In this document: positions 2,291 through 31,154 of the stretch, piece by piece | Layout of the letters: each line of letters opens with the position of its first letter | Numbering within the stretch: the first letter of the stretch is position 1 | Source of the DNA: a virus | Lineage: Duplodnaviria; Caudoviricetes | Virus record (IMG/VR): IMGVR_UViG_3300047160_003616 | Coordinates: 1 to 64,000 of that record | DNA length: 64,000 nucleotides | Strand: one strand, 5' to 3' | Made by a program: the position numbers and the translations under genes | The notes under the pieces: generated by a model | Seen by the model: the letters and a program-made list of their open reading frames with translations, nothing else | What the model was told of the DNA's origin: nothing | Database searches by the model: none

Positions 2291-5200
2291 AGACCGCCGC
2301 CACGTACTGACCGGCCGCCGGGGCGGAGCCAAACTCGATGGCGATGTGGTTGGCGTCGATGGCGCTCACCCCGGCCACCACCAGGACATTGGCGCTGGCA
2401 TCCCAGATGCTCACCGCCGGGCGGAAAGTGTTCAGGTTGTGCGTCAGGGTGGCCACGGTGGCCCCGCCGGGCACCGGGACGAGGATCTTCTTGCATACGA
2501 TGGAGGGGTCCACCGACAGCCCTGCGGTGGTGGCCAGCATCCCGCCCCCGGTGGCCGGGTTCACCGCGATGGTGCTGCCCGAGACCGCAATGCCATTGCC
2601 CTGCACCGGATTAAACGGTGGGGCACACCAACCGATGCGCGCCCACCGGTTGGTGGAGGTGTCGATGGTGCCGCCCGGGTCGGTCATCTGCCAGATGGTG
2701 TACGGGTTGGTGGCACCACCCGCGGCGGTGGTGGTGTTGGACACCACCACGATGGTGTCCTTGGACACGAAGTTGCCGGTGGCGAAGTCGGCCGGGCGGG
2801 TCCAGGCCCCGGCCGCCACCACCCACAGGCCGTTGTTGACCGAGGAGGCCTGGGCGGTGAGCAGCACGGTGGCCCCCACCGGGGCCACCACGCCGTCCAC
2901 GCTCTGCGGGGCGGACAGGCTGGCCACCGAGGTGGTGGCCACATAGTCGGCGTGCTTGGTCAGGCTGGACTGGTACAAGAAGGTATTCAGCTGGCCCTGC
3001 AGCCCGGTGACCGAACCGACCGGGATGGTGGCATTGGCCGCCATCGCCCCCACGTCGGTGTAGGTCAGGTTGACCACCGGGCCGGGGTAACCGTTGACGC
3101 TGGTGATGGTGCCGATGGCCGAGGAGCCCGGCAGTGCCACCCAGTTGGCCAACTGGGTGGGGTCGCTGCTGTTGAGCACGTAGGTGCCCGCGGCCGAGGT
3201 GCCGGTGATCACACAGATGGTGCCCTGGTGCGCGGTGCTGGTGGGCAGCGCCAGCATGGCCGCCTGGTTGGCCACCTGCACCACGTTGGTGATGGCGGCG
3301 GCCGGGATCTCGGCGAGCGGCACGTGCGCGGTGCCGTCCAGGTCGGCCTTGGCCGCCAGGGCGGCGTTCAGTCCGCCCACCTGAGCCATGGTCACCGGCA
3401 GCCCGGCGGTGTTGGTCAACTTGGAGGCATCGAAGGTGCCGGTGGTCGGGTTGAGGTTCTGTAGGTACGGCGTCAGCCCGGCGACGTAGCCAATCGGGAT
3501 GTTCTGCGGGGTCTCGGTCAGCGGCAGCTTGCCTGCGGTCAGATCGGCCTTGGTGGGCATCTGGTTCTGCAGCGCGGTGATGTTGGTCTGCGCCGTAGTC
3601 ATGTCCGACTGGGCCGCCTTGGTGCCCACCGTGGTACTCAGCGCCGCCAGATCGGTCTGGTTGGCCTTGGTGGCCACCGTGGCGTTGGTGGTGCTCAGCG
3701 CCGACGCGGTGGCGTAGTTGATCATCGAGTTGGACAGGTTGGTCAGATCGGCGGCGTTGGCCTTGGTGTCCACCGTGGCCGACAGCGCGGCCAGCTGGGC
3801 GGTGGTGGCCGTGTTGGCCATCTGGGTGTTCAGCGTCTGAACTTCGGATTCCAGCGCATAGACCGGATCGGCGGCACCCGCCTCGTTCCAGCGGTGCAGC
3901 TGCAGATGCCCGTTGGCGGTGATGACGGGGTAGGCCGCGTCGGCATCACGCACCCCGGAGTGCAGGTAGTACTTGGCCCCCACGATGCCCGCAATGGTGC
4001 CGTCGGAGTCGATGCCCCACGGGCTGTGCAGGGTCACCTGGGTGGAGAAGTCGCTCAGTCCACTGATCGGAGTGGTGAGGTTAGCGCTGGCCCAAAATGT
4101 CGTAATGGACGGCGTACCACCGCCCCCGGTGCCGCCGCCCGCCACCTGGGTTTCCAGGGCCGAGATCCGATTGATGGCGTTGGAGGTGCCGGTCAGCTGA
4201 TTACCCGAGATCAGCGTCGACAGTCCGGTCACCTGGCCCTGGGACACGGTGATCGGGTCCGACCCGGCCGAGGCGTGGCTGGCCGCGTGCGGCAACGGAG
4301 TGCGGGCATTGGTGACACTGGGATCGCTGATGAGCAGCCGGTTGGCCAGGTCGGTGGTCAGCCCGCTCACCTGGCCCTCAAAGATGGTGCCGCCGTAAGC
4401 GGCCACGTCGGACAGGGTCAGGTTCACGATGGGGGTGCTGTGGCCGTTGATCTGGCTGATGCCCCCGCCACCGCCGCCGCCCGACGCCACCACCAGGCCG
4501 CTCTTGTTGGTGACCTGACCGGAGGCGTTGATCAGCGCGATGTCGGCGGGCATCAGCGGGTCGGGGATCAGCCCGCTCACGGTGTGCACCAGCGTGGGGT
4601 CGTTCTTGTTGGCGGTGACCGTGGCCTGCAGCGCGGTCAGATCGGTGGCGTTGGCCTTGCCCAACAGTGCGGTGGCAAGGCCGGTGACCTGGCTCATGGC
4701 CACCGAGCCGCCCACCGGGATGGCCCCCACGTCGGCAGCCGCGAGGACCACCGCCCCGGTCTTGTCGTTGACCGAGAGCACCTCATTGAGCAGATACCAA
4801 CTCGTCAGGTGGCCGGGATCGGGGGCGATCAGCCCGTAGACCCCCTGCGGGGTCAGCACGATGTCACCGGGCTGCACCTGTGCCGGGTACTGCAGGGAGA
4901 GCATGGCGGTCTGGTCGGGCACCTGAATCCAGTTGGTGATCGCCGCCGGGGGGATCTGGGCAATCGGGATGTGTCCGCTGCCGTCCAGCGTGGGCGTGTT
5001 GGTCAGCGTGGTGTTGATGCCACTGACCTGAGTGGTGAGAGTGTCGATCTCGGACTGCAGGTGGGCGTCAGCGGCCTGGAAGTTAGTGGTGACGCTGGCG
5101 TCCCCATTCGCCCGCAGCGAGGCCTCCGCCGACACCGAGAGGTTCACGTCGGCGATCTTGTTGTCGGTATAGCCCTGTGCCGCAGTGGTGGTGGCATTGA

Positions 5201-28567: not shown

Positions 28568-29296
28568 CTACGGCATGGTGATGCCGTGTGGCACGATCAC
28601 GTCGCCCTGGGTCATCAGCAGGGTCTCGAAATCGCTGAAGCTCACATCGAATTGGCCCCTGCGCCCGAAATCCGGGCCCCAACTGGTCAGACAGGTGACC
28701 AGCTGAGTGCTGTAGTTGATACCCAGGGCCAGGTACTCATGTCCCCCGGCCACGTTCTCATCAGTCAGCGCCCCGATATGCACCAGCCCGGAGGGGTCCG
28801 GGTTGAACATAGAGCGCGTCCATAATGTGCCCACCAAACATGGCGTGACCTGCAAAGCGGCACGAAATTCAGCGAAGCCGAAACAATGCTGGTATCTGTC
28901 GGCCCAATTCAACTCCACGGCGGCCTTAGCTATATCCAATCCATCGCTGCCCCCATCATGGGGCGGATAAAAATACTCCGGGTCGCCCTCCTCGTGGGTG
29001 GCCACCGAGTAGAACTGCAGCGCCAGGGACTCGGTGCACCAACTCACCTTCTTGGCCCGCCGCACCGGGGCGGCGAAGTCGGTATTAAAAAATCCGGCCA
29101 TCGCATTGCCGGTGCAGGCGTTGGTGTTCCATTGATTCAAAATTGGCTGGGTATAAGACCACAGCGTCGTTACGTCACGTGACGGTTTGTCGGCCGCAAA
29201 GGCGTAGTTAAGCGAGCGCGTGTCGTGATGGATGTGACGCCCCAACCGGTAGGGCGCATCGGTGGGCACCGGCAATTTATGAATGATCTCGGCCAT
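28568..29296 (-). CDS. Papain-like (C1A) cysteine peptidase
   Basis: ILNQWNTNACTGNA (Gln and catalytic Cys), GGHEY (His), and LTSWG where NSWG is usual. Confidence 0.75.
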   Translation of the reverse strand: MAEIIHKLPVPTDAPYRLGRHIHHDTRSLNYAFAADKPSRDVTTLWSYTQPILNQWNTNACTGNAMAGFFNTDFAAPVRRAKKVSWCTESLALQFYSVATHEEGDPEYFYPPHDGGSDGLDIAKAAVELNWADRYQHCFGFAEFRAALQVTPCLVGTLWTRSMFNPDPSGLVHIGALTDENVAGGHEYLALGINYSTQLVTCLTSWGPDFGRRGQFDVSFSDFETLLMTQGDVIVPHGITMP

Positions 29297-29329
29297 AAAA
29301 AACCTCCTCTTCTTCGGAGGAGGTTTTTT
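29297..29329 (-). terminator. Intrinsic terminator closing the guide array; its 3' arm is the peptidase RBS
   Basis: A6-CCTCCTC-CGAAGAA-GAGGAGG-T6 followed directly by ATG. Confidence 0.85.
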
Positions 29330-29332
29330 GGG

Positions 29333-29427
29333 TAAAGCCCCTGCCTTGCCGAGCCCGGCCTAGCCACGCCCAACCTGGCCTTGCCAGGCCTTGCCGAGCC
29401 CAGCCTTGCCCGGCCGCGCCGCGCCAA
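29333..29427 (-). ncRNA. Putative guide unit U6 (17 pentamers, one GGT)
   Basis: Perfect 5-nt register from 29343 to 29427. Confidence 0.65.
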
Positions 29428-29465
29428 GATCTAGCCTCCTCACCTATTAGGTGGGGAGATGAAGG

Positions 29466-29566
29466 TAAAACCCCTGCCCTGCCCCGCCGGGCCGAGCCAG
29501 GCCGTGCCCGGCCTTGCCGATGCCGCGCCGCGCCAAGCCACGCCCTGCCTAGCCATGGCAAGTCTG
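29466..29566 (-). ncRNA. Putative guide unit U5 (16 pentamers, one 1-nt insertion)
   Basis: Shares 5' CAGACTTGCCATGGC with U4. Confidence 0.65.
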
Positions 29567-29585
29567 TTGAAAAATTGAGTTGTGA

Positions 29586-29720
29586 TAAAGCCCCTGCCCT
29601 GCCATGCCGCGCCTTGGCTAGGCGAGCCACGCCGTGCCATGCCGTGCCAAGCCTAGCCACGCCTAGCCGGGCCTAGCCGCGCCGGGCCACGGCCTGCCGA
29701 GCCCTGCCATGGCAAGTCTG
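29586..29720 (-). ncRNA. Putative guide unit U4 (23 pentamers)
   Basis: Perfect register 29596-29710, with three GCC-for-GGC variants. Confidence 0.65.
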
Positions 29721-29730
29721 AAGTTGTGTG

Positions 29731-29820
29731 TAAAACCCCTGCCCTGCCTAGCCCAGCCGTGCCGGGCCGAGGCCAGCCACGCCGCGCCTAGCCATGCCAG
29801 GCCATGCCTCGCCACGTCAA
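29731..29820 (-). ncRNA. Putative guide unit U3 (15 pentamers)
   Basis: Register 29741-29815. Confidence 0.65.
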
Positions 29821-29836
29821 GTCATGAAATTATTGT

Positions 29837-29911
29837 TAAAGCCCCTGCCTTGCCTAGCCTCGACACGCCACGCCCAGGCCCGCCCGGCCATGCCAGGCCT
29901 CGCCGAGTCCG
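29837..29911 (-). ncRNA. Putative guide unit U2 (12 pentamers)
   Basis: Register 29847-29906. Confidence 0.62.
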
Positions 29912-29931
29912 TGAAAGATTTGAATTGTAGG

Positions 29932-30022
29932 TAAAGCCCCTGCCTCGCCGAGCCGAGCCCCAGCCTTGCCTTGCCTCGCCGTGCCACGCCACGCCATGGC
30001 TTGCCAAGCCGCGCCCTGCCAC
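29932..30022 (-). ncRNA. Putative guide unit U1 (16 pentamers, one 1-nt insertion)
   Basis: Begins 2 nt after the stop of the wHTH gene. Confidence 0.65.
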
Positions 30023-30024
30023 GA

Positions 30025-30582
30025 TTATTTGTCGCCGAGCAGCCCTTCCAGTCGTGTCAGCCGTTCCTGCACTTTATCCAGCTCGGTGGTGGTGTGCTCC
30101 TTGGTGCTGCGATGATCCTGCTGAATCAGTTGCATCGCTGCGGCCAACTCACGCTGTTGCACGTCCAGGCGGCGGCAGAAGTCCACCTGGGCGGCGAATG
30201 CCGCCCCCACCACCTCAAAGGCTTGCCGGGCGATGGGGTCCAGGGCCAACCAGTCCACATGAGTCACCGCGTTTTGCCCGCGCACCAGAGCCTTGGAGGA
30301 CTTGCGCTGATGCCGCCGGGCCAGCCGCATGTGCTCGGGGGCCTGAAGCACGCGATAACCCGTGTTAATCACCGCGTCAATAGCACGGTTGTCGACACGT
30401 TCAAACTCGCGGGCGGCCCGCTGGGTGGCCTGTTGCAGCACCCGGCGATCCTTATCCCCGTCGAGACCCAGCGCCTCACCCATCGCCTCGTAGGTCAGTG
30501 TCCCATCCACGGGGGTGGTCCTGAGCAGGTCGTAGATGACCCGCCAGCGGGCTCGCTCGTTGAGCGGGGAGAACGGGCTCAT
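30025..30582 (-). CDS. Winged-helix/coiled-coil partner of the RAMP gene
   Basis: LTYEAMGEALGL...VINTGYRVL wHTH-like segment and helical C-terminus; ATGA-coupled to the RAMP gene. Confidence 0.7.
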   Translation of the reverse strand: MSPFSPLNERARWRVIYDLLRTTPVDGTLTYEAMGEALGLDGDKDRRVLQQATQRAAREFERVDNRAIDAVINTGYRVLQAPEHMRLARRHQRKSSKALVRGQNAVTHVDWLALDPIARQAFEVVGAAFAAQVDFCRRLDVQQRELAAAMQLIQQDHRSTKEHTTTELDKVQERLTRLEGLLGDK

Positions 30583-31154
30583 GACTGCTTGACCCCCATC
30601 ACCTCAAAGCGACCGTAGAGGGGACGACGCTCGCCCAGTCCGATCAACAGCCCCGCCGTGGTGGCGATGCGTTCGATGTCCACCAACTCCAGCAGGGCCG
30701 TGTCCAGGGTGCCGTTGACCTCCACCGCCCACTCGGGGAACCACGGGCGCACTCGCATCACCCGGCTGGCCCCCACCTTGACGCTGGCCCGGTAGTAGAA
30801 CGTGGCCGCGTACAGCTCCTCGACGGTGCGCGGGCCCTTGTAGCCCAGCGCGATCACGTCGTCCTTGATCAACACGCCCTGCTCCACCTGCTTGCCCTGT
30901 TTGGTCTTGCGACCACCCTCGATCAGGCACTTGAAGATGTTGGCACCGGGGATATAGGGGCCCTCCACTTCATCGAAGTAGATCCCGCCGAAAAACTCGG
31001 TGCGGGCCAGCAGGTGATGGTCCTCGTCGGTCTTGTTGCGTTTTCGGGTCAGGCGCTTGACCTCTTTGGCCGCGGGATCGAGCGGATCGGCCAGCCGGGC
31101 ACTGTGCATGATCAGCGGACGGGTTCCCCGAAGGGTGAGGGTGAAATCAATCAT
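30579..31154 (-). CDS. Minimal Cas7/Csm3-like RAMP protein (Vipr-like effector, 191 aa)
   Basis: FTLTLRGTRPLIMH (RRM beta1), PYIPGANIFKCLIEGG (cf. Csm3 P.IPGSSlKG), RVRPWFPEW, and G-rich loop AGLLIGLGERRPLYGRFEV. Confidence 0.82.
   Translation of the reverse strand: MIDFTLTLRGTRPLIMHSARLADPLDPAAKEVKRLTRKRNKTDEDHHLLARTEFFGGIYFDEVEGPYIPGANIFKCLIEGGRKTKQGKQVEQGVLIKDDVIALGYKGPRTVEELYAATFYYRASVKVGASRVMRVRPWFPEWAVEVNGTLDTALLELVDIERIATTAGLLIGLGERRPLYGRFEVMGVKQS

What the first reader, a model, noticed from the sequence alone, without database searches (positions are those of the whole stretch)
29333..30022. Decoded dinucleotides read like codon positions 1-2 of foreign phage genes (wobble-skipping targets)
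Seen, in plus-strand order (the strand that would pair with the guide): U1 TC GA GA (C)CA TT TT TC GT AC AC AT TT AA GC CT AC; U2 TT TA TC AC AC CA CC CG AT AG TC GA; U3 CT TA CA GT GG GA CA AC GC TA AT AG AT TC AC; U4 CT AT GC TT TA GA AC GT AT GT AA TA AC TA GG TA GC GG AC CT GA CT AT; U5 CT CC GG GA AG GT CG TT GA(T) GC GC AA AC CT TA AT; U6 TT GA CG TA AC CA TG TT AG TT GA CA TT CG GC GC AA. Inference: with one skipped base (NNx), U1 can read S-D-E-x-L-F-S-V-T-T-I-L-K-A-L-T, recalling the SVTTIL..L.KP motif of phage PD-(D/E)xK exonucleases. U4 can read ..D-T-V-I-V-N-Y-T-Y-G-Y.., recalling head-tail adaptor V.YT.GY. Skipping wobble positions would make targeting resistant to synonymous escape. 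Caveat: any dinucleotide string translates to something protein-like. I saw no self-match in the window by eye.
Basis: partly seen in the sequence, partly recalled or inferred. Interest (0 to 1): 0.85.

Follow-up and report, generated by a model that had tools for sequence, protein, structure and literature searches.

The report
Phage VIPR guide-RNA array (known kind)
The five-letter repeats are six guide RNAs of a phage VIPR system, a CRISPR-like DNA silencer first described in 2026 preprints.

Summary
All six dinucleotide strings sit exactly where stated, and 86 of 93 fixed triplets are RCC, which is GGY in the minus-strand RNA.

The array lies directly downstream of a 191-aa gene and a 185-aa gene:
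- The 191-aa protein matches the solved SUSP1 Vipr protein over its full length (E 1e-32). Its model has a Cas7/Csm3-like RAMP fold.
- The 185-aa protein is a winged-helix accessory protein.

This is a VIPR system (Vipr + vap + GGY/NN vrRNAs; bioRxiv 10.64898/2026.04.26.720920, .720927 and 2026.10.15.759431).

Here the rule holds only at skip 1:
- **U4** decodes in frame to the VIVNYTYGYAGTLDLI motif of RecE-like exonucleases of actinophages. The best DNA match is 34/46, or 31/36 over the regular repeats. It is not a head-tail adaptor.
- **U6** matches the phage's own neighbouring lysis-type cysteine peptidase gene in frame at 24/34 (0 of 1000 shuffles reach this). It fits a close relative's copy better.
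- **U1**'s exonuclease reading has only weak support.

No full-length target at 80% or more was found. This scan has met VIPR on other DNA several times. Verdict: a new member of a known kind.

The parts
30579..31154 (-). vipr gene (191 aa): a stand-alone RAMP/Cas7-like protein that should polymerise on the GGY/NN repeats
   Evidence: phmmer against PDB 36pp_D 'SUSP1 Vipr protein' gives E 9.9e-33 over residues 6-186. The profile of 34 homologues gives E 1.8e-33. It matches PHROG 4652. The AF2 model has pLDDT 97, and the best Foldseek hits are Csm3/Cmr4. This family is present in 76 of 121 loci that carry (GGCNN)n arrays, on the GGCNN strand, ending just before the array.
30025..30582 (-). vap-like accessory gene (185 aa): N-terminal winged helix plus long C-terminal helices. 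Its ATG overlaps the vipr stop codon (ATGA).
   Evidence: Sequence. BLASTP E 1e-14 to Gordonia phage MakoManhole gp77 'DNA binding protein', which sits in the same position. Weak match to SUSP2 gp039, E 3e-4. The same family occurs in 9 array loci. The AF2 model has pLDDT 80, with only weak wHTH fold hits.
29933..30022 (-). vrRNA U1: 16 GGY/NN repeats (29945-30022) plus conserved 3' tail core (29933-29944)
29838..29906 (-). vrRNA U2: 12 repeats (29850-29906) plus tail core (29838-29849)
29732..29815 (-). vrRNA U3: 15 repeats (29744-29815) plus tail core (29732-29743)
29587..29710 (-). vrRNA U4: 23 repeats (29599-29710) plus tail core (29587-29598). It decodes to the motif-II region of a RecE-like exonuclease.
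29467..29556 (-). vrRNA U5: 16 repeats (29479-29556) plus tail core (29467-29478). The tail is followed by a hairpin.
29334..29427 (-). vrRNA U6: 17 repeats (29346-29427) plus tail core (29334-29345). It decodes to a site in papain-like phage peptidases.
29303..29320 (-). Terminator-like hairpin plus T6 that closes the array. Its 3' arm, GAGGAGG, is the ribosome-binding site of the next gene.
28568..29296 (-). Neighbouring gene, not part of the system: a papain-like cysteine peptidase (242 aa) of the kind found in actinophage lysis cassettes. It holds the 24/34 in-frame partial match to U6 at 28854-28903.

Best explanation
The tract is the guide-RNA array of a type II-like VIPR (Viral Interference Programmable Repeat) system carried by a large uncultured actinophage.

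**Layout.** The minus strand carries vipr (191 aa), then vap (185 aa), then six vrRNAs. Each vrRNA has 12-23 GGY-NN pentamers followed by a short conserved 3' tail (AGGGGYUUUAC). A terminator-like hairpin closes the array.

**Mechanism, inferred by homology to the SUSP1 system.**
- One Vipr protomer binds each pentamer.
- The GGY bases are flipped into the protein, and the two N bases are presented for pairing.
- The filament pairs with double-stranded DNA whose target strand reads NNxNNx, one base skipped per repeat.
- This forms a gapped R-loop that blocks transcription.
- Because the skipped base coincides with codon position 3, synonymous changes in the target do not break pairing.

**Predicted targets.**
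- U4, and perhaps U1, is aimed at a RecE-like exonuclease gene of rival actinophages or prophages.
- U6 is aimed at the lysis-type cysteine peptidase gene of close relatives of this phage. The phage's own copy stays below the matching threshold.

**Shown here:** the anatomy, the homology, the fold, the skip-1-specific in-frame matches, and the absence of a self-target at 80% or more.

**Inferred:** expression and processing of the RNAs, filament formation, silencing, and the identity of the true targets.
For: **Identity of the system**
- Vipr homology: E 1e-32 to the solved SUSP1 Vipr over its full length. H17, K33, R39, the thumb Arg (R136, equivalent to R138) and the last G-loop Arg are kept (with residues).
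- The fold is RAMP-like, closest to Csm3/Cmr4.
- The gene order vipr-vap-array is the same as in SUSP2 and in Gordonia phage MakoManhole.
- This protein family accompanies (GGCNN)n arrays in 76/121 IMG/VR loci, co-oriented with the array.
- The repeats fit the published vrRNA definition of GGY/NN plus an invariant 3' tail.

**Skip rule**
- U4 scores 34/46 at skip 1, against 24-25/46 at skips 0, 2 and 3. The maximum over shuffled guides is 29.
- In about 25 exonuclease loci the best U4 site is the same homologous codon-aligned site.
- The decoded U4 peptide hits only exonuclease genes in 50,697 phage records. A shuffled version hits nothing.
- Natural proteins P0047 and P0009 agree with 17 of the 18 codons under U4's regular repeats.
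- U6 scores 24/34 in frame in the adjacent peptidase gene, and 0 of 1000 shuffles reach that.
- The closest homologue, P0148, agrees in 13/17 codons, against 11/17 for the phage's own gene.

**Self-targeting**
- No self-target reaches 80%, as the paper reports for other VIPR systems.
Against: - No natural site with 80% or more NN match over a full guide was found in exact-pattern scans of IMG/VR, genome contigs or metagenome contigs.
- Those scans tolerate no mismatch and cover only 10-12 repeats each, so they are weak negatives.
- U2, U3 and U5 have no candidate target at all.
- The 31/36 figure for U4 rests on a post hoc trimming of five repeats beside non-GGY scaffold triplets.
- Two GGY-contacting residues differ from SUSP1: D177 is E and W178 is R here.
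- The tails are short, and no pseudoknot was shown.
- Nothing here shows that the RNAs are made.
Confidence: 0.88

Rival explanations
1. U6 works on the phage itself. Its partial match to the peptidase gene 450 bp downstream, together with the hairpin that buries that gene's ribosome-binding site, would let VIPR delay or tune the phage's own lysis gene, rather than attack a rival.
For: The 24/34 match is in frame, beyond all 1000 shuffles, and lies in the very next gene. The hairpin and Shine-Dalgarno sequence overlap.
Against: At 71% the match is below the 80% used for natural targets, and the paper reports no self-targets in other systems. A relative's copy (P0148) fits the guide better than the phage's own copy, 13 against 11 of 17 codons. 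That pattern is expected when a guide is aimed at kin and the self copy escapes.
Confidence: 0.06
2. The array is a protein-binding platform or sponge without guide function. The RNA (or DNA) would be bound every 5 nt by an oligomeric protein, as TRAP binds GAG repeats, and the NN positions would simply be unconstrained.
For: This was my first reading, before any homology search. The fixed triplets, free spacers and strand asymmetry fit it.
Against: The adjacent protein is a Vipr homologue with an experimentally shown guide function in the family. Free spacers would not decode to 17 of 18 codons of a natural protein, or match only at skip 1.
Confidence: 0.03
3. The units are decayed or decoy vrRNAs. 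They would be relics, or RNAs meant to divert another element's Vipr, as satellites do, and would have no live targets of their own.
For: No target at 80% or more was found for any guide. Seven scaffold triplets are not GGY, and two repeats carry 3 variable bases. Decoy and solo vrRNAs exist in the literature.
Against: An intact vipr and vap sit in cis with conserved key residues. 92% of the scaffold triplets are intact. The tails are conserved in all six units. The databases searched hold few relatives of this phage.
Confidence: 0.05
4. The tract is translated into a five-residue repeat protein (G-x-A-[RGW]-x), since a 5-nt period gives the same repeat in all three frames.
For: Long open stretches run through the arrays in several loci and fuse to downstream ORFs.
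Against: A strict 5-nt period has no codon periodicity. TAG arises wherever NN is TA, which happens 9 times here. The units are separated by AT-rich spacers containing stops. No ORF covers the array.
Confidence: 0.01

Closest known systems
Type II VIPR system of Escherichia phage SUSP1 and other Felixounaviruses (Vipr, vap1, vrRNAs; PDB 36pp; bioRxiv 10.64898/2026.04.26.720920 and .720927)
   Same: - Homologous Vipr: 36% identity to the felixounavirus proteins (tblastn), aligned over its full length to SUSP1 Vipr.
- The same gene order: vipr, a small DNA-binding-type vap, then a downstream array.
- GGY/NN pentamers with a conserved 3' tail.
- In-frame, skip-1 matches to genes of other phages.
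- No self-target.
   Different: - The host range is actinobacterial, with a 64% GC genome.
- Guides have 12-23 repeats, against 9-16 described.
- The scaffold is almost purely GGC.
- The tail is short (AGGGGYUUUAC), with no pseudoknot shown.
- The G-loop reads GLGERRP instead of GVGDWRP.
- The vap is only marginally similar (E 3e-4).
- The predicted targets are a RecE-like exonuclease and a lysis peptidase, rather than a satellite recombinase.
VIPR loci of Gordonia phages MakoManhole (gp78/gp77) and Trine (gp41), unannotated in GenBank
   Same: These are the closest cultured relatives of the Vipr protein, at 53% and 47% identity. MakoManhole has the homologous vap (E 1e-14) and a downstream GGY/NN array.
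   Different: MakoManhole has fewer and shorter units, and its tails carry a T-arm-like hairpin that is absent here.
Class 1 CRISPR-Cas backbone proteins (Cas7 family: Csm3, Cmr4)
   Same: A RAMP fold with an RRM core, glycine-rich loop and thumb (Foldseek E about 1e-5). The proteins polymerise on a guide RNA with periodic base flipping.
   Different: There is no CRISPR repeat-spacer array and no other cas genes nearby. The period is 5 nt with three bases flipped, not 6 nt with one. The target is read with a gap.

Membership tests
VIPR system | A Vipr protein: a minimal single-RRM RAMP homologous to the SUSP1 or P. fulva Vipr | tested here: met
   E 9.9e-33 to PDB 36pp_D over residues 6-186. 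RAMP fold at pLDDT 97, with best fold hits Csm3/Cmr4.
VIPR system | vrRNA genes: tandem GGY-NN pentamers (4 or more units) with a conserved scaffold and hypervariable NN, on the strand of the vipr gene | tested here: met
   Six units of 12-23 repeats. 86/93 scaffold triplets are GGY. NN entropy is 3.82 of 4 bits. The units are co-oriented with vipr.
VIPR system | An invariant 3' tail capping each repeat tract (a pseudoknot in the SUSP1 clade) | tested here: inconclusive
   A conserved GGCAGGGGYTTTA follows all six tracts. The rest of the tail varies, and no pseudoknot or common hairpin was demonstrated.
VIPR system | Residues that hold GGY: H17, thumb R138, and G-loop D177/W178/R179 of SUSP1 | tested here: inconclusive
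   The His, the thumb Arg and the last G-loop Arg are kept. Asp is Glu and Trp is Arg here (GLGERRP).
VIPR system | An adjacent vap accessory gene | tested here: met
   A 185-aa winged-helix and coiled-coil protein is translationally coupled to vipr. It is homologous to MakoManhole gp77 and weakly similar to SUSP2 gp039.
VIPR system | Targets obey the 1-nt skip rule, with the skipped base at the codon wobble position | tested here: met
   U4 and U6 exceed shuffled guides only at skip 1, and the sites are codon-aligned. However, the best full-guide match is 74%.
VIPR system | No self-target with 80% or more NN match on the source contig | tested here: met
   The best self match is 24/34, or 71%.
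VIPR system | vrRNAs are expressed, bind Vipr and repress matching DNA | not testable with these tools
   This needs small-RNA sequencing, pull-down and reporter assays.
CRISPR-Cas (class 1) | A repeat-spacer array of direct repeats about 24-48 nt long | tested here: not met
   Only periods of 5, 10, 15 and 20 nt occur in the tract. There is no Rfam match.
TRAP-like RNA-binding attenuation sites | Triplet repeats with free spacers, bound by a ring protein, upstream of a regulated gene, with no guide function | tested here: not met
   The spacers carry sequence information, decoding to natural protein motifs. The partner protein is a RAMP.

The most novel reading that the evidence does not exclude
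The guides are aimed at the most conserved, least mutable motifs of their target genes, namely the PD-(D/E)xK motif-II region VNYTYGYAGTLDLI and perhaps the N-terminal VTTIL motif of RecE-like exonucleases. On this reading one guide could silence the RecET recombination module of many different rival actinophages and prophages. A second guide, U6, would tell the lysis peptidase of sibling phages from the phage's own copy by a few codons. That would be broad-spectrum targeting and kin-discriminating targeting in one array.
Probability: 0.2. Interest if true: 0.5.

Novelty: new member of a known kind. Interest (0 to 1): 0.3.

Why it matters
VIPR is a very recent addition to RNA-guided systems, and its natural targets are known for only a few clades. 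This locus adds the following:
- an actinophage example with unusually long guides;
- predicted targets in a recombination exonuclease and in the lysis peptidase of near relatives;
- a case where the phage's own copy of a target gene sits just below the matching threshold.

These are useful data points for how such systems tell self from rival. They do not change the picture already in print.

Tried and rejected
**Searches of the tract that found nothing**
- Rfam, tRNA and megablast to phages.

**Early ideas dropped once the Vipr homology appeared**
- a TRAP-like binding platform;
- G-quadruplex or R-loop DNA;
- a centromere or iteron array;
- a pentapeptide-repeat protein.

**Exact NNx scans for targets**
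- U4: two patterns in IMG/VR found nothing. One pattern in genome contigs gave a single hit, in an archaeal MAG, that scores 25/46 over the full guide and is read as chance. The same pattern in metagenomes gave two more exonuclease homologues at 32/46 plus that chance-type site again.
- U1, U6 and U3 patterns in IMG/VR found nothing.

**Decoded-peptide searches**
- tblastn with the decoded U1 and U6 peptides found nothing at E up to 10.

**Searches that could not be run**
- Relatives cannot be drawn for a virus record, so host genomes could not be scanned with mismatches.
- No close relative of the peptidase gene is in IMG/VR by the tool's patterns.

**Guides with no signal**
- All six guides were scanned against about 1.06 Mb of other Vipr loci, and none exceeded shuffles.
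- U2, U3 and U5 show nothing above chance anywhere.

**Caveat on the typed peptides**
- They were decoded from the guides with an arbitrary choice at two-fold ambiguous codons.

Full report
**What is there**

The 728-bp gap between two minus-strand genes holds six units. On the plus strand each unit reads AAA[AG]CCCCTGCC followed by 12-23 pentamers NNGCC, then a short AT-richer spacer. 86 of 93 fixed triplets are RCC, which is GGY on the minus strand. All 16 dinucleotides occur at the variable positions, with entropy 3.82 of 4 bits. Runs of this kind are about ten times more frequent in the array than in the whole shuffled contig.

**How the identity was found**

- The pattern (GCCNN)7GCC occurs in more than 120 IMG/VR contigs, always on one strand only within a locus, in genomes from 39% to 76% GC.
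- I called ORFs around these arrays and clustered them. One protein family is present in 76 of 121 loci. It lies on the GGCNN strand and ends a few bases before the first array. The window's member is the 191-aa ORF at 30579-31154.
- A profile of 34 members, and the window protein alone, match one solved structure, PDB 36pp 'SUSP1 Vipr protein', at E about 1e-33 over the full length. The family is PHROG 4652, function unknown.
- The AlphaFold model (pLDDT 97) is most similar to the Cas7-type backbone subunits Csm3 and Cmr4.

**What the literature says**

Three 2026 preprints describe VIPR, Viral Interference Programmable Repeat systems.

- A Vipr RAMP protein polymerises on vrRNAs made of GGY/NN pentamers capped by a 3' tail. 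One protomer binds each repeat.
- The GGY bases are buried in the protein, and the NN bases pair with DNA in which one base is skipped per repeat. [quoted passage not shown] - Natural targets are satellites and competing prophages. The authors accept 80% or more NN identity as a natural target and found no self-targets.

**Membership**

- The window has vipr, then a translationally coupled 185-aa gene, then the array. That is the gene order of SUSP2 and of Gordonia phage MakoManhole.
- The 185-aa protein is homologous to MakoManhole gp77, annotated 'DNA binding protein' (E 1e-14). It is marginally similar to the SUSP2 accessory protein.
- Its model shows an N-terminal winged helix and long C-terminal helices, with only weak fold matches.
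- Of the SUSP1 residues that hold GGY, the His, the thumb Arg and the last G-loop Arg are kept. Asp is Glu and Trp is Arg.
- All six units share the tail core GGCAGGGGYTTTA, but I did not show a common structure beyond it.
- A terminator-like hairpin closes the array.
- The phage is a distant relative of the large cluster C mycobacteriophages, with 46% identity in a helicase. The contig is about half a genome.

**Testing the decoding**

I scored every guide against sequences at skips 0-3 and compared the results with guides whose dinucleotides were shuffled. This is the method the third preprint also uses.

U4:
- U4 decodes to L[IM]A[FL]Y[DE]TV[IM]V[KN]YTYGYAGTL[DE]L[IM].
- A peptide chosen from this set hit only exonuclease genes of Rhodococcus, Gordonia and Mycobacterium phages among 50,697 phage records. 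A shuffled version hit nothing.
- In about 25 of 35 exonuclease loci from GenBank, IMG/VR and metagenomes, the best U4 site is the same homologous, codon-aligned site. The best score is 34/46.
- On that set skip 1 gives 34. Skips 0, 2 and 3 give 24-25, and shuffled guides never exceed 29.
- The mismatches cluster in the five repeats nearest the tail, which are also flanked by non-GGY scaffold triplets. Over the other 18 repeats the match is 31/36. This trimming is post hoc.
- Two natural proteins, P0047 and P0009, agree with 17 of those 18 codons.
- So U4 points at the motif-II region of a RecE-like PD-(D/E)xK exonuclease, not at a head-tail adaptor.

U6:
- Its best site in the phage's own contig is 28854-28903 on the minus strand, at 24/34. 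It is in frame, inside the gene directly downstream of the array, and no shuffle of 1000 reaches it.
- That gene is a papain-like cysteine peptidase. In other actinophages it sits beside holin and lysin genes.
- In two of five distant homologues, those of phages Mufasa8 and Forza, the best U6 site is again the homologous one.
- The closest homologue in the large protein collection, P0148 (85% identical), agrees with 13 of 17 decoded codons, against 11 for the phage's own gene. From the protein I predict 28/34, or 82%.
- I read this as a guide aimed at sibling phages, with the phage's own copy held below threshold. The alternative, that the phage tunes its own lysis gene, is not excluded.

U1:
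- U1 shares only VTT[IM][FL] with the invariant GVTTIL motif of the same exonuclease family.
- The best DNA match at that site is 20/32, in one locus. At the protein level the best is 7 of 16 codons there.
- By a rough count, the chance of such a five-residue coincidence with a family chosen independently is about 1-2%. This is suggestive, not shown.

U2, U3 and U5 gave nothing above chance.

**Limits**

- Collection scans accept only exact patterns, so each tested one window of 10-12 repeats without mismatch. All were negative for a true target.
- No site with 80% or more identity over a whole guide was found, so the true targets remain unknown.
- Expression and activity are inferred from homology only.

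**Verdict**

However, it was published in 2026, and this scan has already met VIPR on several other genomes. I give that reading only 20%. This is a new member of a known kind, of modest interest.

Noticed in passing
G000:C1:73743-73800 (+), same contig, outside the window: A seventh, solitary vrRNA-like unit on the opposite strand: ten GGC/GAC-NN repeats ending in GGCAAGGGTTTTAC, the same tail as the six array units. It lies in an intergenic gap. No target above chance was found in the contig.
   Followed up: partly
window 29297-29330: The hairpin that ends the array has A6 on one side and T6 on the other, so it looks like a terminator in both directions. Its 3' arm on the minus strand, GAGGAGG, is the ribosome-binding site of the peptidase gene (ATG at 29296). 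Read-through transcripts would therefore have that site paired.
   Followed up: no
window 29599-29625 (U4 repeats 1-5 in plus order): The five U4 repeats nearest the tail are flanked by two non-GGY scaffold triplets. They match no exonuclease, while the other 18 repeats match well. They may be inactive or belong to a different register.
   Followed up: partly
L071:4922-5419, L100:8102-8563 and ten other IMG/VR loci: In 12 array loci a different protein of about 165 aa, with a PLHxxFEWDD motif and no Pfam family, sits between vipr and the array in place of the winged-helix protein. It is possibly another accessory (vap) family.
   Followed up: partly
L172 (Gordonia phage MakoManhole) about 1690-1740, 2990-3040 and 3130-3180: The unit tails of this cultured phage's array contain a hairpin with a T-arm-like GGTTCGACTCC sequence. 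ARAGORN calls no tRNA there. This suggests a different way of ending or processing the guides.
   Followed up: partly
L009-L128: 45 of 121 array-bearing loci lack a recognised member of the main Vipr cluster. Some arrays lie at contig ends, and others may belong to more distant Vipr types.
   Followed up: no
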